A stretch of 23,008 nucleotides of DNA from a virus (Duplodnaviria > Heunggongvirae > Uroviricota > Caudoviricetes), in the IMG/VR virus record IMGVR_UViG_3300029162_000080. One strand, written 5' to 3'. Under the pieces are notes generated by a model, which saw only the letters and a program-made list of their open reading frames with translations, was not told where the DNA came from and searched no databases. Positions 1,654-21,369 of the stretch are shown piece by piece (position 1 is the first letter of the stretch; each line of letters opens with the position of its first letter). A program made the position numbers and the translations under genes.

Positions 1654-2229
1654 CTACGGCAGTGCTGGCCATTCAATATCCTGTGCAGTTGACGTATCAA
1701 CACGGTTCAGCAATACCCGATACTTTTTCCATGCTTCCAGCAACGAGATTTCTTCCTCCGTTGCAATTTCCAGATCTGCAGCATCCTGAAGCGGCGCAAT
1801 ATGCTCACTGGCTACCTGCATCAGGCTGTTTTTTGTTTCTTCCGCCTCCCGGATCCGGAACAGTTTTTCTGCTTCCGTATCCTTCACCCAGGCTGTGCCG
1901 TTCCACTTCTGATATTCCCCTTCCGGCGATAACCAGGTGACATTTTCCGGTAACGAGCCAAGTTCAGAAATAAATAACGCGTCGCCGGAAGCCACGTCAT
2001 AAACCGTTTTACCCCGATGATCTTCAACGAGATGCCACGATGCCTCATCACTGTTGAAAACAGCCACGAAGCCTGCCGGAATATCTGGCGGTGCAATATC
2101 GATACTGTTTGCTGGCAGACCTGTATGAGGCGGAATATATGCGTCACCTTCACCAATAAATTCATTAGTTCCGGCCAGCAGATTATAAATTTTTATGGTC
2201 CGTGGTTGTTCACTCATTCTGAATGCCAT
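1654..2229 (-). CDS. Tail fibre assembly protein (Tfa family, 191 aa)
   Basis: Immediately downstream of and overlapping the tail-fibre ORF. Sequence resembles lambdoid Tfa chaperones and has the length expected for TfaQ/TfaR-type proteins. Confidence 0.8.
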
Positions 2230-3596
2230 TATGCAAGCCTCACAATATAGTTAAATGCGATGTTTTTGACGGTGTTTTCCGCGTTACCAGCAGCGTTAAC
2301 GGTGATGGTATGTCCATGTGAACCAATCGCAACGGAGTGCGTATGAGCACCAATACCGACAGTATGTGCGTGTGCACCTGCGCTTGCAGCAGTACCCGAT
2401 ACAGAGTGCGTATGAGCGCCTGCAGAAGAAGTGTTAACACTGTATTTAGAATAATCAGGTGATCCACTTCCCGGAGCACCACTGGAACCACCTGAAACAA
2501 ATGTCATCGAATGGGTATGTGCACCGGCTGAAGCAGCTGTACCGCTAACACTATGGGTATGCGCACCAGTGTTATTCGTGGATTTAGTGCCGTAATCAAA
2601 CGACGATGTGGTTTTCGTCCCCAAATCCGTACTGGATACGCTGGCGCTGTGGGTGTGTGATTTAATGCCGTCCTGTTCCTGAGACAATACGGCTCGATCA
2701 CTGGCGGGCTTGCCCTTAATCGTCCAGCCACGCATATCAGGGATCACGCCTGACGGATAAGCGGCTGCAAGTTTCGGGTAAGCAGATTTGTCAAAAGTCT
2801 GCCCCTGCATCAGGGCATAACCAGACGGAACGGTATCTGATGGCCACGGGATTGGTGCACCGACTGGATAAAACTCTGCAGGAGGATGAGCCGAGGTGTA
2901 AAGCTGCGCCCACGGCGACCAGTTTGCGTCGGTCGTATCCCGTCGTGAACGAATAAATGCCGGAGCATGAGCACCGCTTGTACCACTCCAGCCGATGAGT
3001 AACTCACCTTCGCCAACGGCTGTCATCCCTTTCAGGTGAATGATATTTCCATACGCTGTTGGATATCCGTTGTTATACACCTCGTATAACTCAAGACCTG
3101 TTGCCCCCTGCGTATTGTCTGTCAGCGCGGTTATGCGCCCGGAAACCATCTGGGCAAACACCTCACCATCGCGCAGCCAGGTACGCAGCATCAGACGTTC
3201 CAGCATCGGACGGGTAAACTGCCCGGTGACCTCCGGACTGACAGACCATTCACTCCATCGGGTACGTATCTCCGCTGCCAGATCACGGGCAATGGCCCCA
3301 TTGCGTAATACCGGATGTGGCTCGACAATAATCCCGTTTTTCCCCACCACCCGTTCTTCCAGCTTGTCAAATACACCAATAACCAGATCGTGGTTGTTAT
3401 CAAGGTAACGGGCCTGCTCACGTAACGACACGGCCCCGTACTGGCTTAACTGGTCGGCAGTTCGGTTCTCCCGTCGGGCTTTGTGTGTCCGCGTCGTTTT
3501 TACGGCCTCATAAGCCTGGATCACCGCACGGGAACGCAGCCTTGCCGCTTTCCATCCTGGTGAAAAAACGCCAATCACATCATCAAGAATTGCCAT
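2229..3596 (-). CDS. Fusion ORF: portal-protein N-terminal fragment joined to side tail fibre C-terminal domain (stf-like)
   Basis: The C-terminal two-thirds carries the characteristic side-tail-fibre sequence ([33 protein letters not shown]…) with repeated GAHTHS/HxH motifs and the …[11 protein letters not shown] end. The N-terminal ~165 aa (…[19 protein letters not shown]…) occupy the position directly after gpW where the portal gene belongs, and resemble the lambda gpB N-terminus. Start taken as the ATG at 3596 overlapping the W stop; the ORF track extends to 3668. Confidence 0.7.
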
Positions 3597-3814
3597 CAGA
3601 ACCTCGCCAGCCGGTACCCGGGATGCCCACGTCGTCGTGTAATCAGAGCCGCAAGGCGGCGCTCCCACTCCTGCCGCCCCTGCCGGATCTCAGATAAGTT
3701 TTCCATGGTCATCTGCTGACCATTAAAAGTGACGGATTTTCCGTCCAGCACCGCCATTTCAGCTTCCGTATAACGCTGAATCATGGCTTCAATATCATTC
3801 TGATTCATAACCAT
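3596..3814 (-). CDS. Head-tail joining protein gpW-like
   Basis: 72-aa ORF between large terminase and the portal fragment. C-terminus …[15 protein letters not shown] resembles the lambda gpW end (…QRRRGPAGFYV). Overlaps the terminase stop. Confidence 0.6.
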
Positions 3815-5904
3815 CCTCCGGAAGTCAGCCAGGGGTTAACATCGTCAGTTACTGTTTTCTTCCGTTTTTGTTTTTTAACAGGCGTGGATACCGGTTCCGG
3901 TGAGGGTGACGGTTCGGTACTGTCCGGGACACACTCCAGCCAGGCTTCCCGGCTCGCCCACTCCGGTGCATCCGGCCAGCGGATCTTTTCGTATCCATGC
4001 AGAATGACCAGAGCCTCGGCATACACCATCAGGTCAAAAGCTTCGTTGGCACCGCGACCCGGCTTACTCCATTTCCCGTCACTGCTCCGCTCTTCATACG
4101 TCAGTTCGTCGTAAAACCAGCTCCCCAGCCAGTCAGGGAAATGCACATAGCCGGGACCTGGCGAGTCACGCCATAACGCGTTATTCACCCGGTCTTTCAG
4201 GGCATCCGTCTGAAGAAGCCAGAGCGGCACATCACCTGCGGCCTGCGCCCGTCGGCCCGTTCGTCCGGTGTTATCAGGGAATGTACGGGTTATCAGTTTT
4301 GCGCGCCGGATGCTGTCGCCCTTAAACAGGTAAATACGTTTACCAAGGCCATCACGACGGCAACGACGCCAGAATTTATAGGCATTATCAGTGACCCCGT
4401 CTTCACCGCCGGAGTCCACCGCCATTGCCATCAGTCGCATTTGTTGAGAAGGGTCGGAGGCCAGCGGCCAGCTTTTATGAAAAACATCCGTCAGCAGGAC
4501 ATCCCAGTCTTCCGGATAGCTGGCTGGATCAATTCGCTGGCTCTCCCCGTCGCTGTCACCGCGCAATGACTGCGTGATGTTGTAACGATCAATAATCCAG
4601 CGTTCGCCACGGCCGCCATAGCCCGTTACCTGAACCACAAAACGGCGATGACGTCCCGCCTGCACATCCACTGTCGCCACAAGGAAATTAACGCCATCCG
4701 GCACACTGCGGGAAGGAACTGGCTCTGCCCGCTGCTCAAGCAATTCACTTTTTCGTTGCTCCATGCTGGCACGAGGAAGATAAGGCAATCCCCAGTCGGT
4801 GTTGATAACCGCCCTGAGTGTTTCTTCGCTTCCTGTCGCTTCATACTCCTGTTCTGCAGTCAGTAATTTGTAAACCAGTTGCGCCCAGGTCTGATACGCA
4901 GCAGCTGGCCCTTCCATCCAGAAACTGGCGATACGGGAGCGGCGCGGTTCACCGGAAACGTTGCCGTTACGATCAATGACCTGCCCTTCACGCAACCAGA
5001 CTCCTGCACTATTGAGCTCACGCTTTTTCTCCGCAGTGATAATGCCGCTGCAGTGCGGGCAAAGTAGATACGCCGCCTCACTGGCTTTAAAGGGATCCGG
5101 TTCATTACGGTAGCCGGTCATGGCATCCATGGCTGGCTGAAAATATTCACCGCAGTGCGGACATGGCCAGTACCAGCGGCGGCGGTCACCACGATTGTAA
5201 AGGGAAAGAATACCAGTCGTCGGTGGCGCTTCATGAGGCGACTTACGTCGCCATTTGCTGTCGCAGATGTCACGTCCCGGCGAGCTCTCCACCAGAGTCA
5301 TCCCGGCGGACATAAATGTGGTGGTACGTTTTGAGGCCAGGGAGAAACCATCACCCTCGCTGTCGATATTCTCCGGAAAACGGTCGTAATCGGTTAAGGC
5401 GACAAACCGGTAATCCGACGACGACATAATGTTGACCGAGGGCCAACCAATTTTAAGGAACGAGCCATCCCTGAACGTCTTATCATGGACATTATTGTCG
5501 TTACGACGTGGACTCATTCTTTTCTTTACCGCCGCACTGCTTCTGAACGTTCTGTCGAGGCGCTTTTTAGAATGCTCGCGGGCCTTATCTTCGGTCATCT
5601 GCACAACGAGCATGTCCGAAGGATCGCAAACGATGGTATAGACAATCCATCCATCGATCAGACCAATGGTCTTCCCTGTTCGCGCAGGACCAACAAAAAT
5701 CACCGCATCGTATTCACGCGATGCCAGGCAGTTCATGGGCTCAATGATGTAGGGTGTCAGTTCAGGATCCCATGGCACCGAGTTACCAGCCCCCTTGGGA
5801 ACACGCATGAATTTTTTAACAGCCTCCGAAATCGGCATGCGACGTGGTGGGGAAAATCCTGCCGATATGTCCCTTCCCAAATTTCGGGCTGATGAAAAAC
5901 CCAT
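3805..5904 (-). CDS. Terminase large subunit (lambda gpA family)
   Basis: 699-aa ORF with a Walker-A-like GPARTGKT and a CPHCG zinc-finger-like segment (WYWPCPHCGEYF, cf. lambda gpA ACPHCGEE). Located between the small terminase and W; overlaps the upstream gene end. Start may be an internal Met. Confidence 0.8.
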   Translation of the reverse strand: MGFSSARNLGRDISAGFSPPRRMPISEAVKKFMRVPKGAGNSVPWDPELTPYIIEPMNCLASREYDAVIFVGPARTGKTIGLIDGWIVYTIVCDPSDMLVVQMTEDKAREHSKKRLDRTFRSSAAVKKRMSPRRNDNNVHDKTFRDGSFLKIGWPSVNIMSSSDYRFVALTDYDRFPENIDSEGDGFSLASKRTTTFMSAGMTLVESSPGRDICDSKWRRKSPHEAPPTTGILSLYNRGDRRRWYWPCPHCGEYFQPAMDAMTGYRNEPDPFKASEAAYLLCPHCSGIITAEKKRELNSAGVWLREGQVIDRNGNVSGEPRRSRIASFWMEGPAAAYQTWAQLVYKLLTAEQEYEATGSEETLRAVINTDWGLPYLPRASMEQRKSELLEQRAEPVPSRSVPDGVNFLVATVDVQAGRHRRFVVQVTGYGGRGERWIIDRYNITQSLRGDSDGESQRIDPASYPEDWDVLLTDVFHKSWPLASDPSQQMRLMAMAVDSGGEDGVTDNAYKFWRRCRRDGLGKRIYLFKGDSIRRAKLITRTFPDNTGRTGRRAQAAGDVPLWLLQTDALKDRVNNALWRDSPGPGYVHFPDWLGSWFYDELTYEERSSDGKWSKPGRGANEAFDLMVYAEALVILHGYEKIRWPDAPEWASREAWLECVPDSTEPSPSPEPVSTPVKKQKRKKTVTDDVNPWLTSGGWL

Positions 5905-16378: not shown

Positions 16379-16960
16379 TTATCTTCTTTTCAGTTCCTTG
16401 GGAAGAAAAGCATCTATTTCTTCTTCAGAAAATGTTAAATCTTCTTTGTTTTTTAATGCGTCCTGTGCTTTTTTATAAGCTTCAAATGTTGTACTAGGAG
16501 AGCCTGAATACACTGAATGTAAACTCTCGAGTAACGAATCCCGCTCTGACTGCAATTGCTCGATTGGTTTTTCACCCATTGCTAAGTCTGTAAGCAATGA
16601 TAAATACTTTTCTCGGATTAACCAGATCTCATTTGCAGCCTGCTTATGTTTTTGCGCCAACTCACCAAGGTCATAATCTTTGGTATAAGCGTTAAGAATG
16701 AGAAGCAGTGTTGATACAACAATCCCAACCCCCGTGCCTACTTCACCCGCGCCGAAAAAAGTTGCTAGAAAGCCTCCAGTAGTTAAGGCGGAGAGAATTA
16801 TTTGCCAAAACTTTATAGAAGATAGTCGAGATAGGAGAATGTCTGAGCATTTTTCATGCGTCTTATGTGAGTAAACGACCCGACCATAACACTCTCTGAT
16901 CTGCCCTTCTAAAACCCTTCTAGATTCAGGTGTATCCTTAGTCTGGAAATGTTGATCCAT
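16379..16960 (-). CDS. Two-TM membrane protein, SLATT-like predicted effector (about 193 aa)
   Basis: Two adjacent hydrophobic helices (IKFWQIILSALTTGGFLATFF and GTGVGIVVSTLLLILNAY) followed by a charged helical C-terminal region. Start taken at the ATG at 16960 with a GGAG Shine-Dalgarno; the longer ORF-track start is 17017. Overlaps the upstream nucleotidyltransferase gene, suggesting translational coupling. Confidence 0.6.
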   Translation of the reverse strand: MDQHFQTKDTPESRRVLEGQIRECYGRVVYSHKTHEKCSDILLSRLSSIKFWQIILSALTTGGFLATFFGAGEVGTGVGIVVSTLLLILNAYTKDYDLGELAQKHKQAANEIWLIREKYLSLLTDLAMGEKPIEQLQSERDSLLESLHSVYSGSPSTTFEAYKKAQDALKNKEDLTFSEEEIDAFLPKELKRR

Positions 16961-17819
16961 AAATCTCCCGCCATTTTTGCTTAGCCGACCATTCGCGTTT
17001 TGGGGTCGCCATTTCATGCTCTATAGCTTCGAGTGAAATGTTATAGCACCGTTTTGCTTTATATTGGAAAAGCCCTTTACCATAGACATACTGACCACTT
17101 CCTGGCGCTTTCCAATACTCCTTACTCGTATCTTGATCAGCCATCCATTTGAAGAAATCACGACTCATGAAATCGTAGTAAAGATACGACTTATCTCTAT
17201 GCGCCCAATTTTCAATGAATTGATACGCAAGCGTATCAATGAGTAAACCACTTATAGGTACATCCCATTTACGCTTCCAAGCTCTTGCCATTCTACAAAG
17301 TTGCACCAAATTGTTATTGGTAATATTATTTCTTAACCTCATTGCAGAAATTTCTGGCTTTGGATTTGTAATCCTCCAACGGCCACCACCGTTCGCATCA
17401 GGAAATGTGTAACTATCACTAACATTGAGGAAAGCTGGAACGACTTCAAATGTAATTCCATCATTGAACGGTACAAGGATCACTTGACCGTCACCTCTAA
17501 TACTAGTGGTAGCATAGGTTTTTTCAATAGATCTCTTAACCGCTTGAAGCAATGCTGACTGCCCATTTCCTAAGTAGCTATTGTATTTTTGATACTCGGA
17601 ATATGGTAGCTGAAAAATCATATCCAGATCGCTCAAGCCTTGCGTAGCTGTGTTCCGACCATATGATCCAACGTAGAGACTATGAGAAGTATCAGAACTG
17701 CTATCCCAAAAATCCGTATTTAAACGCTTCGTTATATTCCTATATCTAGTTGAAATTGTTCCACCATCTTTTACAGTAAGATTGGAGCAAAATCCGCAAA
17801 ACCACTCAGCTAAACCCAT
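16938..17819 (-). CDS. cGAS/DncV-like nucleotidyltransferase (CD-NTase / SMODS-type), about 293 aa
   Basis: Nucleotidyltransferase signature …YVGSYGRNTATQGLSDLDMIF… (GS-x11-DxD) with further acidic residues downstream (FNDGITFEVVP). AAGGAA Shine-Dalgarno before the ATG at 17819. AT-rich coding sequence relative to the flanking phage genes, by eye. Confidence 0.65.
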   Translation of the reverse strand: MGLAEWFCGFCSNLTVKDGGTISTRYRNITKRLNTDFWDSSSDTSHSLYVGSYGRNTATQGLSDLDMIFQLPYSEYQKYNSYLGNGQSALLQAVKRSIEKTYATTSIRGDGQVILVPFNDGITFEVVPAFLNVSDSYTFPDANGGGRWRITNPKPEISAMRLRNNITNNNLVQLCRMARAWKRKWDVPISGLLIDTLAYQFIENWAHRDKSYLYYDFMSRDFFKWMADQDTSKEYWKAPGSGQYVYGKGLFQYKAKRCYNISLEAIEHEMATPKREWSAKQKWREIYGSTFPD

Positions 17820-18173
17820 GCTCAATTCCTTTTCTAAAATCTAATGAAAAATTCAAGGGCGCATGTTCCATGCATCATTGATAACTTTTTTCAGTCAGCT
17901 AGAGCAACATAATTGATACTAACTAGCTGTTTCTTCAAGTGAGTAACCTACTTTAGCATCAAGGTATTATACCTACCAAGCATGGGGAGAAACCACCACT
18001 TAAGCCATTGAAGTATATAGAGCAGATTTTGTTGAAAAAGCACTGTTTGTTTATACATATGAATAGTGCTTTTAACCAGCAATAGCGCGGCTCTCAGCGT
18101 TTTACAAGCAGTGTCATGGGGTGTCGGGGATCGGAAGTTCAAATCCTCTCGTGCCGACCCAAAAGATTATATA

Positions 18174-18199
18174 AACCAGCCTGTTATTGCTGGTTTTTT
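18174..18199 (+). terminator. Rho-independent terminator on the plus strand with no annotated upstream plus-strand ORF
   Basis: Stem AACCAGC / GCTGGTT with an 8-nt loop, followed by TTTTTTA. Confidence 0.5.
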
Positions 18200-18386
18200 A
18201 TGCCTACCTTCCTGGTAGGGAAGCTATGGGGAATTACTGGGGAATCCCCCCTTTACCTGCTCCCATTAAACTAACATAGCACGATGTAAGCAACTTCCGC
18301 TTCTGGCACAAAGCGGACAACCACGCTAGCTCTACCCTGTGCCACAAAATGTCAATTTACATCTGAACTAATGCACTTTAATCTCG

Positions 18387-18809
18387 TCACTTCAAAAAAT
18401 ACCGAACATCCCCCTGATAAAACGACAATATCCGCTGCATAACTTCGCTTTTACGACACTCAGTACAAATTATATTATGACGCCTGTCGTAACGACGTAT
18501 TTCTCCATCAGGTAATGACCAGATAAGGTCCGGATCAACCGCAGATGGTTTCTTCAGCTTTGCCCTTGAGAGCTTTTTACGGGCATTTTGCCAGTCCTTA
18601 CGCGCCTCTTCAGACGGGAATAACCCGTAACCAGAGTTGTATACATCGCCACTGGCAACCAGCTCTCTGGCCAGAACGCTCATCAGATATCTTGTTGCCC
18701 CAGTTTTAGCTTCCAGTTGTCGTAACGTCTCGCGCCCACTCTGGCGTACGAGTTCAAGAACCTGCCCTTTAATTTTTTCCCGCTCTTCTTGTGTAAAAAC
18801 TTTTGCCAC
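18387..18809 (-). CDS. Hypothetical protein (140 aa) with HTH-like segment
   Basis: ORF with a candidate helix-turn-helix (…ETLRQLEAKTGATRYLMSVLAREL…) and a basic region; downstream of the 288-aa ORF on the same strand. Confidence 0.45.
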   Translation of the reverse strand: MAKVFTQEEREKIKGQVLELVRQSGRETLRQLEAKTGATRYLMSVLARELVASGDVYNSGYGLFPSEEARKDWQNARKKLSRAKLKKPSAVDPDLIWSLPDGEIRRYDRRHNIICTECRKSEVMQRILSFYQGDVRYFLK

Positions 18810-18849
18810 AAGCCCTCCTGAAAATTACCTCATGACCAGAAATACACAC

Positions 18850-19716
18850 TTACCCCCTGAAGCCCGGTGGAATTTCGGTATCCGGTTCAGAAATATGATT
18901 CACACAACGCTGGTTGTTCGTACCGCTTACCGGGAGCAACCAGGGGTTTTCAAAATTCCGGTCCGGTCCAAAAAACGTCGTCGCTCGCTGAACAAATTCC
19001 GTTCCCGTTTTCCCGGTAGCCGCCAGGTATCTTGCGTAACGCCTCACACCATCCAGCATGGCCTCTGGTGGCACCCCCTCGCGTAATCTGGCCTTCCAGG
19101 CACTGAAAGCGGATTTCTTCGGGTTTGCCCCAGCACGCAACGGGTATTCCCGCCAGACCTGTTCGAACACATCCGGATAATCTACTCGCCCCACAGGCTG
19201 CCCGGTGTTTTCCGGGACTACCCGATCGGCTTCCCGCTGAATGGCGGAATCGGCTTCAGGCTGCTGCAGTTGGTGTGATTGCTCCGGCCTTGCGGTCATC
19301 ACCTGCTGCACAGCGCCCGAATCGGCTTTCAGCGCATACGCTGAATCGGCTTCCGGTGTCGTGCCTGCTGGCTGACCAGGATTGACGGTCTGAACATCCC
19401 CTGCCTGGTTCGTGGCGTTTTTTACGCCATGGACCATAGTGTTTTGATCTTCTTGATCTGTATCTTTATCTGTATCTTTATCTGTCGTGACTCGTCGTGA
19501 CATGTGCGTGACATTTCGTGACGCGCCGTGACAATCGCCATTTTGTTCCCGCTTTCTTTCCCTCTCTCGCTGCGCCCTCTTGCGCTCTGCAGGAGATTTT
19601 GCGGTTTGCGAAATATTGCCGTTGTCTTCTTTAAGCACCTGGCGTTTTTCCCATCCAGTGATTACGCTCTCTGGCCTGGTGATGTGGATGCCGGAAACAT
19701 TGACGGCAGCATCCAT
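18850..19716 (-). CDS. Hypothetical early-region protein; start uncertain (in-frame ATGs at 19716, 19503 and 19437)
   Basis: The C-terminal ~190 aa look protein-like (…FEQVWREYPLRAGANPKKSAFSAWKARLREGVPPEAML…). The N-terminal ~93 codons overlap the repeat array and the 5' part of the divergent plus-strand ORF, so the real start is probably internal. Confidence 0.45.
   Translation of the reverse strand: MDAAVNVSGIHITRPESVITGWEKRQVLKEDNGNISQTAKSPAERKRAQRERERKREQNGDCHGASRNVTHMSRRVTTDKDTDKDTDQEDQNTMVHGVKNATNQAGDVQTVNPGQPAGTTPEADSAYALKADSGAVQQVMTARPEQSHQLQQPEADSAIQREADRVVPENTGQPVGRVDYPDVFEQVWREYPLRAGANPKKSAFSAWKARLREGVPPEAMLDGVRRYARYLAATGKTGTEFVQRATTFFGPDRNFENPWLLPVSGTNNQRCVNHISEPDTEIPPGFRG
19459..19532. 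repeat. Direct-repeat array: two tandem 12-bp units (TGTATCTTTATC) followed by five CGTGAC hexamers phased at 10-11 bp
   Basis: CGTGAC starts at 19486, 19496, 19507, 19517 and 19527 (read directly from the sequence), preceded by TGTATCTTTATC at 19459-19470 and 19471-19482 and by two GATC sites. Confidence 0.8.
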
Positions 19717-21369
19717 CGCTGGGCAAAAAATGAAGTTATCGACAACGACCGCGAAGACTGGAAGCGTATCTCGGCATCAATGCGCAAACAGCCTGATGCC
19801 CTTCGCTACGACCGCCAGACTATTTTTGGCCTTGTCCGTGAACGTCCGATCGACATTCACAAAGACCCTGTGGCACTGAACAAATACATTACTGAATACC
19901 TGAATACAAAGGGCGTGTTTGAAGATGAAGGAACAAATCAGAGCGCAACTGATACTCTCTCGTCGCCAGTACCAGAAACTGATGCAGTGGAAACGGCAAT
20001 TCCAGACAACGAAAAAACCGAATGCAAAGTGGAAGTCGAACCATCTGTAGAACGTGAGGGGCCGTTCTACTTCCTCTTCACCGACAAGGATGGCGAAAAA
20101 TACGGTCGCGCAAACAAACTTTCTGGTCTGGATAAGGCGCTGTCTGCTGGGGCTACTGAAATCACGAAAGAAGAATATTTCGCCCGCAAAAACGGTACAT
20201 ACTCAGGTTCACAACAAAATACTGGTGCATCTGACACGACCGCACAACCAGGGTCAGTAAAAGTTACCGCTGACGAAGTAAACAAAATTATGCAGGCAGC
20301 CAATATCAGCCAGCCTGACGCCGATGAACTGCTTGCAGTATCACGTGGTGAATTTGTTGAAGGGATTAGCGACCCGAATGATCCGAAATGGGTTAAGGGG
20401 ATCCAGACCCGCGATTCTGTGAACCAGAACCAGCAAGAAACGGAACAGAACGACCAGAAAGCGGAACAAAACAGCCCAAATACGCAACAAAACGAGCCAG
20501 AAACGAAACAACCTGAACCAGTAGTGCAACAGGAACCGGAAAAGATCTGCACCGCCTGCGGTCATAGCGGTGGCGGCAACTGCCCTGATTGTGGTGCGGT
20601 GATGGGTGACGCAACATACCAGGAAATATTCGATGGAGAGAATCAGCCTGAAGTTCAGGAAAATGATCCGGAGGAAATGGAAGGCACTGCGCATCAGCAC
20701 AAGGAGAACACTGGCGGCAATCAGCATCATGCCAGCGATAGTAAAACTGGCGAGGCGTCAGATCCCTTAATTAAGGCGAACGGTCATCATAATCTCACAT
20801 CCACCAGCAGAGCGGGGATTCATCTGATGATCGACCTTGAAACCATGGGAAAAAATCCCGATGCCCCGATTATCTCAATAGGTGCAATATTTTTCGATCC
20901 GCAAACCGGAGATATGGGACCGGAATTTAGTAAGACTATCGATCTGGAAACTGCTGGCGGAGTCATTGATCGGGACACCATTAAATGGTGGCTTAAACAA
21001 TCACGCGAAGCGCAATCTGCCATTATGACCGATGAAATCCCGTTAGATGATGCACTGTTACAATTGCGGGAATTTATCGACGAAAACTCCGGTGAATTTT
21101 TTGTTCATGTCTGGGGAAATGGAGCCAACTTCGACAACACGATTTTGCGCCGTTCATACGAACGGCAGGGGATCCCCTGCCCGTGGCGTTACTACAACGA
21201 TCGCGATGTACGCACAATCGTTGAGCTGGGGAAAGCCATAGACTTCGATGCCAGAACGGCTATTCCATTCGAAGGTGAGCGCCATAATGCACTTGATGAC
21301 GCCCGTTACCAGGCAAAATACGTTTCAGTTATCTGGCAAAAACTGATCCCGAGTCAGGCTGATTCTTAA
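19528..21369 (+). CDS. Exonuclease-like protein: C-terminal DEDDh-type 3'-5' exonuclease domain, central C4 zinc ribbon, low-complexity Q/N/E-rich linker
   Basis: C-terminal motifs MIDLETMG (Exo I), HVWGNGANFDNTIL (Exo II) and ERHNALDDARYQAKY (Exo III, His-type). Zinc ribbon CTACGHSGGGNCPDCG. Directly upstream of xis-int in the same orientation, as for recombination genes in lambdoid pL operons. The ORF-track start at 19528 is a GTG inside the repeat array; the true start is probably further downstream (in-frame ATG at 19780). Confidence 0.6.
   Translation: MTIAILFPLSFPLSLRPLALCRRFCGLRNIAVVFFKHLAFFPSSDYALWPGDVDAGNIDGSIHRWAKNEVIDNDREDWKRISASMRKQPDALRYDRQTIFGLVRERPIDIHKDPVALNKYITEYLNTKGVFEDEGTNQSATDTLSSPVPETDAVETAIPDNEKTECKVEVEPSVEREGPFYFLFTDKDGEKYGRANKLSGLDKALSAGATEITKEEYFARKNGTYSGSQQNTGASDTTAQPGSVKVTADEVNKIMQAANISQPDADELLAVSRGEFVEGISDPNDPKWVKGIQTRDSVNQNQQETEQNDQKAEQNSPNTQQNEPETKQPEPVVQQEPEKICTACGHSGGGNCPDCGAVMGDATYQEIFDGENQPEVQENDPEEMEGTAHQHKENTGGNQHHASDSKTGEASDPLIKANGHHNLTSTSRAGIHLMIDLETMGKNPDAPIISIGAIFFDPQTGDMGPEFSKTIDLETAGGVIDRDTIKWWLKQSREAQSAIMTDEIPLDDALLQLREFIDENSGEFFVHVWGNGANFDNTILRRSYERQGIPCPWRYYNDRDVRTIVELGKAIDFDARTAIPFEGERHNALDDARYQAKYVSVIWQKLIPSQADS

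What the first reader, a model, noticed from the sequence alone, without database searches (positions are those of the whole stretch)
19440..19535. Helically phased array of five CGTGAC direct repeats plus tandem 12-bp repeats in a divergent control region
CGTGAC occurs five times at 19486, 19496, 19507, 19517 and 19527 (spacing 10, 11, 10, 10 bp), which puts all copies on one face of the helix. Immediately upstream are two tandem copies of TGTATCTTTATC and two GATC (Dam) sites. Such phased direct repeats are characteristic of cooperative protein-binding arrays (iteron-like origins, centromere-like sites, operator arrays for filament-forming regulators). The array lies between the divergently oriented early genes and the exonuclease-xis-int operon, so it is a candidate operator/promoter or origin-like element. 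I do not recognise the motif as a known operator.
Basis: seen in the sequence. Interest (0 to 1): 0.5.

Follow-up and report, generated by a model that had tools for sequence, protein, structure and literature searches.

The report
Orphaned phage replication origin repeats
The five phased CGTGAC repeats and the A+T-rich repeats beside them are most likely the replication origin of a decayed lambda-like prophage, sitting (as in phage lambda) inside the phage's own replication-initiator gene, which a deletion has truncated here; this is a real but ordinary kind of element, not a divergent promoter/operator region.

Summary
CGTGAC occurs five times at 10/11-bp steps (19486-19532). Next to it are a 12-bp tandem repeat and two GATC sites. 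No such chain appears in 300 shuffles. The array lies inside the coding sequence of a minus-strand phage "replisome organizer" (replication initiator) gene. That gene has lost its first 85 codons, and a roughly 4-kb deletion (junction 19663/19664) has fused it to a 5'-truncated exonuclease gene. The "divergent control region" is therefore a deletion scar.

Full-length relatives carry the same GTCACG array in the linker-coding part of the gene, followed by GATAAA/GATACA repeats. They also carry a second GTCACG cluster in codons 43-55, which is missing from the window. The motif is kept in 26 loci from Enterobacterales to Burkholderiales, with all three reading frames running through it. In more distant relatives it changes to GTAACG or CGAACGC in both clusters together. 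Coliphages that share only the C-terminal half of the protein lack it.

This matches the known design of phage lambda, P22, L and SPP1 origins: iterons plus an A+T-rich unwinding element inside the initiator gene. It is a new member of a known kind, and probably inactive in this window unless an initiator is supplied in trans.

The parts
19486..19532 (-). Iteron cluster B. Five direct copies of GTCACG on the gene's coding (minus) strand, read as CGTGAC on +, at 10/11-bp steps. These are the putative binding sites of the phage initiator's N-terminal domain.
   Evidence: Searches give positions and chance. Searches show conservation in 26 loci, use of all three reading frames, spacers with only 0.05-0.44 bits, and covariation with cluster A.
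19440..19485 (-). A+T-rich block, the putative DNA-unwinding element. It holds the 12-bp tandem repeat GATAAAGATACA (coding strand; 2.9 copies at 19451-19485) and two GATC sites (19446, 19455).
   Evidence: TRF; the least stable 40-bp duplex in the gene remnant is 19442-19481, at -43.4 kcal/mol against a mean of -57.8 (sd 4.0). GATAAA/GATACA repeats follow the iterons in nearly all relatives, even where the iteron sequence differs; copy number slips between 1.5 and 5.5 units among near-identical relatives.
19406..19436 (.). Imperfect palindrome immediately after the A+T-rich block. It may be a third part of the origin, but its role is uncertain.
   Evidence: One search finds a 13-pair stem allowing G-T. 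One search gives a DNA fold of -8.7 kcal/mol, z = -3.68, with 0 of 200 shuffles as good. The same palindrome is kept in PhiR5_2 and POCJ13, which have a different N-terminal domain. Enrichment in distant relatives is only weak.
18850..19664 (-). Remnant of the phage 'replisome organizer' / replication-initiator gene, corresponding to codons 86-356 of a 356-codon gene. It lacks most of the N-terminal domain and iteron cluster A. The in-frame extension of the ORF to 19716 is antisense exonuclease-gene sequence.
   Evidence: phrog_3729 'replication initiation protein', profile positions 86-356 of 356, E = 1.6e-193. Searches give full-length relatives. One search gives the translations.
19663..19664 (.). 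Deletion junction with 2-bp TA microhomology. Relative to phage Tritos, about 4.1 kb is missing: the exonuclease 5' part, ydfD, dicB, DicF, ydfCBA, cI, cro, ydaT/Rha and initiator codons 1-85.
   Evidence: Searches align both sides. One search gives the Tritos gene order. The size is inferred from coordinates.
19663..21369 (+). 5'-truncated exonuclease gene with an Rv2179c-like 3'-5' exonuclease domain. The ORF start at 19528 is spurious and overlaps the array in antisense.
   Evidence: Pfam PF16473. (phrog_2082, profile positions 256-822 of 823); the relative is annotated 'missing N-terminus'.
18387..18809 (-). DUF977 / Ren-like gene downstream of the initiator gene. It is context only and is not required for the array.
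   Evidence: PF06163, E = 7e-29. (phrog_142). It is absent next to the array in Pseudomonas phage phita81A.

Best explanation
The array is the surviving half of the replication origin of a Qin-like lambdoid prophage. In intact relatives the origin is embedded in the phage's own initiator ('replisome organizer') gene.

Proposed mechanism, by analogy with lambda O, P22 and L gp18, and SPP1 G38P (inferred):
1. The initiator's N-terminal domain binds the 6-bp GTCACG cores. These recur once per helical turn, so they all lie on one face of the DNA.
2. The resulting nucleoprotein array stresses the adjacent, easily melted (GATAAAGATACA)n block and opens it.
3. The initiator's C-terminal domain, which ends in a DnaT-like tail, brings in the host helicase machinery.

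Intact genes also have a second cluster of four GTCAC(G) copies plus one inverted copy about 230 bp upstream, in codons 43-55. This cluster probably binds the same protein.

Shown here: the location inside the gene, selection on the motif at the DNA level, covariation of the two clusters, the low duplex stability of the adjacent block, and the absence of any other such cluster in a complete phage genome.

Inferred, not shown: that the initiator is the binder, and that replication starts here.

In this window a deletion has removed the initiator's N-terminal domain, cluster A, and the immunity and pR region. The origin is therefore an orphan that could fire only if a related phage supplied the initiator in trans.
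For: 1. The array lies inside an initiator gene. The ORF matches phrog_3729 'replication initiation protein' at positions 86-356 of 356. Full-length 356-aa genes annotated 'phage replisome organizer' or 'DNA replication protein O' occur in E. coli prophages and in the isolated phages Tritos and Evi.
2. In full-length genes GTCAC occurs at nt 129/139/149/160 and at nt 389/399/409/420/430, followed by GATAAAGATACA repeats.
3. Pseudomonas phage phita81A shares only the N-terminal 138 aa (69.5% identity) and has a different C-terminus and different neighbours. It keeps GTCAC at nt 129-160 and nt 388-418, followed by TAGATAAAGATACAGA. Coliphages that share only the C-terminal half have no such array.
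4. Twenty-six of 39 loci from Enterobacterales, Pseudomonas, Bordetella, Acidovorax, Chromobacterium, Gilvimarinus and others (gene G+C 42-68%) have at least 3 copies in both clusters. The core is conserved while spacers carry 0.05-0.44 bits, all three frames are used (28/36/35), and spacing is 10 bp in 61 cases and 11 bp in 9.
5. In more distant relatives the motif changes in both clusters together: GTAACG in L107, L111, L116 and L120, and CGAACGC in L113, L115 and L118. The downstream GATAAA-type repeat stays.
6. The adjacent block is the least stable duplex in the gene remnant.
7. In the 46-kb genome of phage Tritos the only GTCACG clusters are these two.
8. The array-coding segment maps to a predicted disordered linker, residues 128-244 with pLDDT below 50. 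Indels among relatives fall in the repeat segments.
9. Published precedent: lambda ori has 4 iterons plus a 39-bp high-AT region inside O (PMC6022878). P22 gene 18 contains four ~20-bp repeats, and phage L gene 18 contains six 11-bp repeats taken as the likely origin (PMC8022706). SPP1 oriL has direct repeats plus an A+T-rich unwinding element inside gene 38, bound by gp38 (PMC6316719).
Against: - There is no experimental evidence for this family, and I found no paper describing this repeat set.
- The conserved core is only 6 bp, much shorter than lambda or plasmid iterons.
- The N-terminal domain could not be assigned to a DNA-binding fold. The PDB fold search gave nothing significant (best E = 2.6). 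Matches to Phage_rep_org_N are below cut-off, at E = 0.024 and 0.097.
- Co-inheritance of cluster B with the N-terminal domain could partly reflect physical linkage.
- Two clusters inside one gene is not the lambda pattern, so one or both could be control sites rather than the initiation site.
- No DnaA box or IHF site lies nearby. This is neutral for a lambda-type origin.
Confidence: 0.8

Rival explanations
1. The repeats are initiator-binding sites, but they act in control rather than initiation. Possible roles are autoregulatory roadblocks, titration, or 'handcuffing' between the two clusters, like the incA control iterons flanking repA in P1 or the control iterons of F and RK2. Replication would then start elsewhere.
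For: There are two clusters about 230 bp apart in the same gene. An inverted copy is present at nt 193. Transcription of the gene must pass through both clusters.
Against: Cluster B is always followed directly by a conserved, easily melted A+T-rich repeat. No other GTCACG cluster exists in a complete phage genome that could serve as the true origin. The lambda, P22, L and SPP1 precedents place the origin itself at this position in the gene. A mixed role, with B as the origin and A as a control site, is not excluded and is compatible with the main explanation.
Confidence: 0.09
2. This is the first reader's reading: an operator/promoter array in a divergent control region, bound by a neighbouring regulator such as the 140-aa DUF977 protein, controlling the early genes and the exo-xis-int operon.
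For: One promoter-like match overlaps the array on the + strand at 19508-19535, with 9 of 12 positions matching. The flanking ORFs look divergent.
Against: The divergence is a deletion scar. Both flanking genes are 5'-truncated and join at 19663/19664. In intact relatives the array is about 390 nt inside a gene, co-directional with its operon. One promoter-like site is no more than chance gives (0.6 expected). The array persists in a Pseudomonas phage that has no DUF977 or ydaT neighbours.
Confidence: 0.03
3. The repeats are a by-product of a repetitive or low-complexity peptide linker, or of neutral duplication and gene conversion, with no function at the DNA level.
For: The region encodes a disordered linker with a DKDT repeat. 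The 12-bp repeat number slips among close relatives.
Against: A 10/11-bp period cannot encode a peptide repeat, and the motif is read in all three frames about equally, 28/36/35. The linker peptides of E. coli and Pseudomonas phages do not align, while the DNA motif and GATAAAGATACAGA are identical. Gene conversion would homogenise the spacers too, yet spacers carry 0.05-0.44 bits against 2 bits for the core. The motif is retained across gene G+C of 42-68%.
Confidence: 0.03
4. The array is a centromere-like partition site or a packaging/recognition site for a protein other than the initiator.
For: Phased 10-11-bp direct repeats resemble parC-type centromeres. This resemblance rests on general knowledge and was not tested here.
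Against: No partition genes lie in the window or in the relatives examined. These are integrating phages with int and xis. The terminase and cos region lies elsewhere in Tritos. The array tracks the N-terminal domain of the initiator.
Confidence: 0.02

Closest known systems
Phage lambda ori inside gene O (also P22 gene 18 and phage L gene 18)
   Same: In both, initiator-binding direct repeats lie in the middle of the initiator's own coding sequence, in the part that links the N- and C-terminal domains. An A+T-rich unwinding region follows immediately on the downstream side. Repeat specificity goes with the N-terminal domain type. The genomic place is also the same, in the early-right operon after cro and cII-like genes. 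Phage L's six imprecise 11-bp repeats are the closest in unit size.
   Different: The protein does not match the lambda O family in Pfam. Lambda iterons are about 18-19 bp with internal dyad symmetry and are bound by O dimers. Here the conserved core is 6 bp without dyad symmetry, at 10-11-bp steps. Intact relatives have a second cluster within the N-terminal-domain coding region, which is not described for lambda. No P-like, DnaC-like or helicase gene follows; the next gene is DUF977.
Bacillus phage SPP1 oriL inside gene 38 (replisome organizer G38P)
   Same: Both origins consist of direct repeats plus an A+T-rich unwinding element located within the replisome-organizer gene (PMC6316719). NCBI annotates the relatives as 'phage replisome organizer'. 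The N-terminal domain aligns end to end with the Phage_rep_org_N models, although only weakly.
   Different: The domain matches are below the curated cut-offs, at E = 0.024 and 0.097. SPP1 has a second, distant origin (oriR), whereas phage Tritos has no GTCACG cluster outside the gene. SPP1 encodes its own helicase loader and helicase downstream, and the window-type module does not.
Iteron-controlled plasmid origins (P1 RepA incC/incA, F, RK2, pSC101)
   Same: Both have phased direct repeats bound by a replicon-specific initiator next to an A+T-rich unwinding element. Two sets of repeats flank or lie near the initiator gene, one of which could act in control. This comparison rests on general knowledge and on PMC4081077 and PMC2647930, which were seen only in search results.
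   Different: Plasmid iterons are typically 17-22 bp and intergenic. Plasmid origins usually carry DnaA boxes, and none is found here. No homology to Rep winged-helix initiators could be shown.

Membership tests
Lambdoid-type origin embedded in the initiator gene (architectural class: lambda, P22, L) | Array of direct repeats inside the coding sequence of the phage replication-initiator gene | tested here: met
   The array lies at gene nt 389-435 of a 1071-nt initiator gene in full-length relatives. The window ORF matches phrog_3729 at positions 86-356.
Lambdoid-type origin embedded in the initiator gene (architectural class: lambda, P22, L) | A+T-rich, easily melted region immediately downstream of the repeats | tested here: met
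   Positions 19442-19481 form the least stable 40-bp duplex in the gene remnant, 3.6 sd above the mean. GATAAA/GATACA repeats are conserved in relatives.
Lambdoid-type origin embedded in the initiator gene (architectural class: lambda, P22, L) | Repeat sequence specific to the initiator's N-terminal (origin-binding) domain type | tested here: met
   The array is kept with the N-terminal domain in Pseudomonas phage phita81A and in 26 loci. It is absent from coliphages that share only the C-terminal half. The motif changes together in both clusters in distant relatives. This evidence is comparative only.
Lambdoid-type origin embedded in the initiator gene (architectural class: lambda, P22, L) | Initiator binds the repeats and replication starts there | not testable with these tools
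   This needs EMSA or footprinting, plasmid replication assays, or marker-frequency mapping.
Lambda O protein / lambda-type iterons (strict family) | Initiator homologous to lambda O (Pfam Phage_rep_O N-terminal domain) | tested here: not met
   Pfam scans of two full-length proteins at E <= 0.1 returned only weak hits: PF09681 for one and HTH_Crp_2 for the other. There was no lambda O family hit.
Lambda O protein / lambda-type iterons (strict family) | Iterons of about 18-19 bp with hyphenated dyad symmetry | tested here: not met
   The core is the 6-bp GTCACG with unconserved 4-5-bp spacers, and there is no dyad within units. The lambda definition is taken from PMC6022878.
SPP1 G38P-type replisome organizer with oriL | N-terminal Phage_rep_org_N domain (PF09681 / TIGR01714) | tested here: inconclusive
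   Residues 5-125 align to the whole model, but at E = 0.097 (13.1 bits, cut-off 23.3) and E = 0.024 (14.8 bits, cut-off 49.8).
SPP1 G38P-type replisome organizer with oriL | Origin (direct repeats plus A+T-rich unwinding element) within the organizer gene | tested here: met
   The SPP1 description comes from PMC6316719.
SPP1 G38P-type replisome organizer with oriL | Second, distant origin copy (oriR) bound by the same protein | tested here: not met
   In phage Tritos (46,360 bp) the only GTCACG clusters are at 32233-32296 and 32493-32534, both inside the replication gene.
SPP1 G38P-type replisome organizer with oriL | Dedicated helicase loader and DnaB-type helicase genes downstream | tested here: not met
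   The next gene is DUF977 in the window, in L001 and in Tritos. Some relatives with other C-termini do have DnaC-like or primase/helicase neighbours.
Iteron plasmid origins (RepA/RepE/TrfA type) | Winged-helix Rep initiator | tested here: inconclusive
   The AF2 N-terminal domain is helical with pLDDT 64-86. Foldseek against the PDB gave no significant match (best E = 2.6), and there were no PDB sequence hits to Rep proteins.
Iteron plasmid origins (RepA/RepE/TrfA type) | DnaA boxes in the origin | tested here: not met
   No TTATNCACA match with up to 1 mismatch lies between 18905 and 19735.
   The array lies inside a coding sequence. The divergence is created by a deletion junction at 19663/19664.
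   One weak sigma-70-like match (9 of 12) was found, against 0.6 +/- 0.6 expected in shuffles.

The most novel reading that the evidence does not exclude
In intact relatives, the second iteron cluster (A) lies in the codons for residues about 43-55 of the initiator's own N-terminal domain. The peptide encoded there changes whenever the iteron sequence changes: ASRNVTRGH...VT with GTCACG, NVTRDENGVTLHSVT with GTAACG, and NATERGRTQN with CGAACGC. If that segment is part of the DNA-recognition surface, the binding site and the specificity determinant are written in the same nucleotides. A change of origin specificity could then arise in one step and spread to cluster B. A second, weaker possibility concerns the orphan origin in this window. 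It lies 1.7 kb from a SMODS-SLATT defence-like cassette, and it could be fired or titrated by the initiator of a superinfecting related phage, acting as a decoy or as a local gene amplifier.
Probability: 0.12. Interest if true: 0.7.

Novelty: new member of a known kind. Interest (0 to 1): 0.33.

Why it matters
- **Annotation:** phased repeats next to an apparent divergent gene pair can be an origin stranded by a prophage deletion, not a regulatory region.
- **A testable origin:** the initiator cluster has more than 5,700 member sequences in E. coli alone, and relatives occur in many Proteobacteria. The analysis gives this module a concrete origin: a 6-bp GTCACG core once per helical turn, a conserved GATAAA/GATACA repeat, and two clusters whose motif covaries.
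- **Natural specificity classes:** GTCACG, GTAACG and CGAACGC types could be used to study how origin-initiator specificity evolves, or to build compatible phage-derived replicons.
- **For this window:** the prophage has lost its immunity region and its initiator. It cannot replicate on its own, but it keeps a site that a related phage's initiator could still recognise.

Tried and rejected
- **tRNA and RNA families:** ARAGORN found no tRNA in the window. Rfam at E <= 1 found nothing in 17800-20000. An RNA element is therefore not indicated.
- **Promoter/terminator scan:** the results are at chance level.
- **Host-factor sites:** there is no DnaA box (up to 1 mismatch) and no IHF consensus in 19400-19540.
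- **Fold of the N-terminal domain:** the AF2 model is only moderate (mean pLDDT 61.5; N-domain 64-86). Foldseek against the PDB gave no significant match, only weak HTH, MarR and sigma-4-like resemblances at E >= 2.6. I therefore do not claim a winged-helix fold.
- **PDB sequence search:** only the C-terminal 22-24 residues match DnaT.
- **Palindrome as a universal third element:** it is significant in the window and kept in PhiR5_2 and POCJ13. Across distant loci the best stems are only slightly longer than in controls, 6.6 against 5.7 pairs, so I treat it as uncertain.
- **My first automatic locator for the A+T block:** it misfired on the upstream Lys/Glu/Arg-rich purine-rich codons. I replaced it with de novo detection of phased chains.
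- **Literature:** searches for the motif, literal sequence strings and 'replisome organizer' plus iterons found no description of this origin. The library lacks most subscription-journal papers, so prior description cannot be excluded.
- **Peptide-repeat and gene-conversion explanations:** rejected on frame usage and spacer divergence.
Full report
**1. The observation**

The sequence is as described. CGTGAC occurs on the + strand at 19486, 19496, 19507, 19517 and 19527, with spacing 10, 11, 10, 10. The other eight copies in the 23-kb window are isolated. Tandem Repeats Finder reports a 12-bp repeat of 2.9 copies at 19451-19485 and a 10-bp-period array at 19484-19533. Two GATC sites lie at 19446 and 19455. 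A chain of five identical 6-mers at 10/11-bp steps is the longest in the window. In 300 dinucleotide-preserving shuffles the longest chain was 2 in 296 cases and 3 in 4 cases.

**2. Where the array really is**

The array is not intergenic. It lies inside minus-strand ORF 18850-19716.
- That ORF matches PHROG 3729, 'replication initiation protein', only from profile position 86 to 356 of 356 (E = 1.6e-193).
- The opposing exonuclease ORF matches its PHROG only from position 256 to 822 of 823.
- Megablast shows that homology to the replication gene stops at window 19664 and homology to exonuclease genes starts at 19663.
- Aligning both sides against a relative gives the junction ...CCAGTGATTA|CGCTCTCTGG... 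with a 2-bp TA microhomology.

Intact relatives include E. coli C5 (locus L001) and the isolated phage Tritos. They have the order int - xis - exonuclease - ydfD - dicB - DicF - ydfCBA - cI - cro - ydaT/Rha - replisome organizer (356 aa) - DUF977. By these coordinates the window lacks about 4.1 kb, including the immunity region and the first 85 codons of the initiator (inference).

Strain O177:H21 has a different, independent deletion in the same region. None of 5,426 complete E. coli genomes shows the window's junction as a single aligned piece.

The rest of the window is a decayed Qin-like lambdoid prophage. It carries pin, a portal::tail-fibre fusion ORF, terminase, lysis genes, Q, DUF968, SMODS plus SLATT, and DUF977. 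The 'divergent control region' is therefore a deletion scar.

**3. What the array is**

On the gene's coding strand the order is:
- five GTCACG cores
- then (GATAAAGATACA) x 2.9 with two GATC sites
- then an imperfect palindrome at 19436-19406

Full-length genes have the same array at nt 389-435. They also have a second cluster upstream, with GTCAC at nt 129, 139, 149 and 160 and an inverted copy at 193. That cluster lies in codons 43-55 of the N-terminal domain. It is deleted from the window.

Four lines of evidence show selection on the DNA motif rather than on the peptide.

(a) *A natural domain swap.* Pseudomonas phage phita81A shares only residues 1-138 (69.5% identity) and has a different C-terminus and different neighbours. 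It keeps GTCAC at nt 129/139/149/160 and nt 388/398/408/418, followed by TAGATAAAGATACAGA. The linker peptides of the two proteins cannot be aligned. Coliphages PhiR5_2, POCJ13 and Ayreon share only the C-terminal half and have no such array.

(b) *Breadth of conservation.* A genome-collection scan with the N-terminal 128 residues gave 38 loci from many Gamma- and Betaproteobacteria. Together with L001 and phita81A, 26 of 39 genes have at least 3 GTCAC in both clusters.
- The core is followed by G in 88-94 of 99-108 units.
- Spacers carry only 0.05-0.44 bits.
- The three reading frames are used 28/36/35 times.
- Spacing is 10 bp (61 cases) or 11 bp (9 cases).
A 10/11-bp period cannot be a peptide repeat. 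Gene conversion would have homogenised the spacers as well.

(c) *Covariation.* In more distant relatives the motif changes in both clusters together. It is GTAACG in Pantoea, Enterobacter, Marinobacter and Sphingomonas loci, and CGAACGC in L113, L115 and L118. The GATAAA/GATACA repeat after cluster B is retained.

(d) *Uniqueness in a complete phage.* In the 46-kb genome of phage Tritos, the only places with at least 3 GTCACG within 60 bp are these two clusters.

Supporting details:
- The A+T-rich block at 19442-19481 is the least stable 40-bp duplex in the gene remnant, at -43.4 against -57.8 +/- 4.0 kcal/mol.
- The palindrome folds better than all 200 shuffles, with z = -3.68. It is kept in PhiR5_2 and POCJ13. 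Support across distant loci is weak.
- An AlphaFold2 model of the full-length protein (mean pLDDT 61.5) puts cluster B, the A+T block and the palindrome in DNA that encodes a disordered linker (residues 128-244). Cluster A encodes the end of a long helix and a loop.
- Indels among relatives fall in these segments. One is a 7-residue (21-nt) insert, equal to two repeat units.
- Among 76 near-identical viral contigs, the five-copy array is unchanged in 71. The 12-bp repeat varies from about 1.5 to 5.5 units.

**4. How it most likely works**

The best-supported reading is that this is the phage origin of replication, built like other origins embedded in initiator genes. The proposed steps are inferred by analogy:
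1. The initiator's N-terminal domain binds the GTCACG cores, one per helical turn, on one DNA face.
2. The assembled array stresses and opens the neighbouring A+T-rich repeat.
3. The C-terminal domain recruits the helicase machinery. It matches 'DnaD-like helicase loader' PHROGs, and its last 22-24 residues match the C-terminus of DnaT in PDB 6aep, 2ru8 and 9zbt.

What is shown: the location, the DNA-level selection, the covariation, the low duplex stability and the uniqueness in a complete genome. What is inferred: the binder and the start site.

In the window the initiator's N-terminal domain, cluster A and the upstream promoter region are gone. The origin is an orphan and could respond only to an initiator supplied in trans.

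**5. Comparison with known systems**

Published descriptions fit the architecture:
- Lambda ori has four iterons and a 39-bp high-AT region inside gene O (PMC6022878).
- P22 gene 18 contains four ~20-bp repeats (PMC8022706).
- Phage L gene 18 has six imperfect 11-bp repeats, taken there as the likely origin (PMC8022706).
- SPP1 oriL has direct repeats plus an A+T-rich unwinding element within the replisome-organizer gene 38, bound by gp38 (PMC6316719).

On membership:
- The protein is not a lambda O homologue by Pfam.
- Its similarity to Phage_rep_org_N is below the curated cut-offs.
- The repeats are much shorter than lambda iterons and lack dyad symmetry.
- There is no oriR-like distant copy.
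- No dedicated helicase or loader gene follows.

So it works like these origins without being a demonstrated member of either protein family.

**6. Rivals**

- A control-only role for the repeats, of the handcuffing or roadblock type, is the main alternative. It may apply to cluster A.
- The operator/promoter reading is contradicted by the location.
- The peptide-repeat reading is contradicted by frame usage.
- A partition or packaging role has no supporting genes.

**7. Novelty and verdict**

I found no paper describing this repeat set, though the library is incomplete. The element is a new member of a known kind: an initiator-gene-embedded phage origin.

The window itself holds only a truncated, probably inactive copy. 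The comparative pattern is the more interesting by-product, but it lies largely outside the window. That pattern is two covarying clusters, one inside the codons of the presumed DNA-binding domain, with at least three motif classes across Proteobacteria.

Interest is about 0.33. Confidence in the origin reading is about 0.8.

Noticed in passing
window 19663-19664 (and L002 about 5175-5192): The junction is an illegitimate-recombination deletion with 2-bp TA microhomology. It removes about 4.1 kb holding the immunity region, dicB, DicF, ydfD and related genes. E. coli O177:H21 has an independent deletion in the same region with different end points, which suggests recurrent loss of this segment in Qin-like prophages.
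   Followed up: partly
L001 5462-5494 (gene nt 129-165 and 193); Tritos L125 32233-32296: A second GTCAC(G) cluster (A) lies inside codons 43-55 of the initiator's N-terminal domain in intact relatives and is absent from the window. Its motif covaries with cluster B across motif classes (GTCACG, GTAACG, CGAACGC), and the encoded peptide changes with it.
   Followed up: partly
L004 (phage PhiR5_2) gene nt 183-215 and 440-468: An initiator with an unrelated N-terminal domain shows the same two-cluster layout with its own motif. AAGGGGCTTC repeats lie in the N-domain codons and inverted GAAGCCCCTT repeats lie in the linker. A (CAGGAA)n run follows, then the same palindrome as in the window.
   Followed up: no
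window 18850-18921 (last 24 codons of the initiator remnant): The C-terminal tail ...SEPDTEIPPGFRG closely matches the C-terminus of the host replication-restart protein DnaT (PDB 6aep, 2ru8, 9zbt; NCBIfam NF002770). This hints that the phage initiator mimics DnaT to engage the host primosome or helicase.
   Followed up: no
window 16379-17825 (minus strand): A two-gene SMODS nucleotidyltransferase plus SLATT_4 transmembrane effector cassette (Pfam E = 2e-50 and 6e-74) is inserted as cargo between the hokD region and DUF977. It looks like a defence system. The same cassette is in E. coli C5 (L001), but other genes occupy this slot in O177:H21 and Tritos.
   Followed up: no
window 2229-3668 (minus strand): A single 479-aa ORF joins an N-terminal lambda-type portal fragment (Phage_portal_2, profile positions 3-125 of 354) to tail-collar and tail-fibre repeats. 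This points to a second large internal deletion that removed the head and tail genes.
   Followed up: no
window about 18120-18205: A tRNA-like 3' fragment (GGGGATCGGAAGTTCAAATCCTCTCGTGCCGACCCA) is followed by a terminator-like hairpin and a T-run, in the 560-bp non-coding gap between SMODS and DUF977. ARAGORN and Rfam report nothing there.
   Followed up: partly
window 19451-19485; loci L007-L086: The 12-bp GATAAAGATACA repeat, which encodes DKDT, is a length-polymorphic microsatellite among 99%-identical relatives (about 1.5 to 5.5 units; protein 354-368 aa). The five-iteron array next to it is almost invariant.
   Followed up: yes
loci L003, L089, L093, L094, L096, L097, L107, L111, L121, about 20-60 nt after the A+T block: A motif of the form C5-6 N3-5 C5-6 N2-6 G4-6 recurs, for example CCCCCCTTACCCCCCTGAGGGGG, encoding PPxPP..G. 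It takes the place of the window-type palindrome in many non-E. coli relatives. It could be a DNA hairpin or a peptide motif.
   Followed up: no
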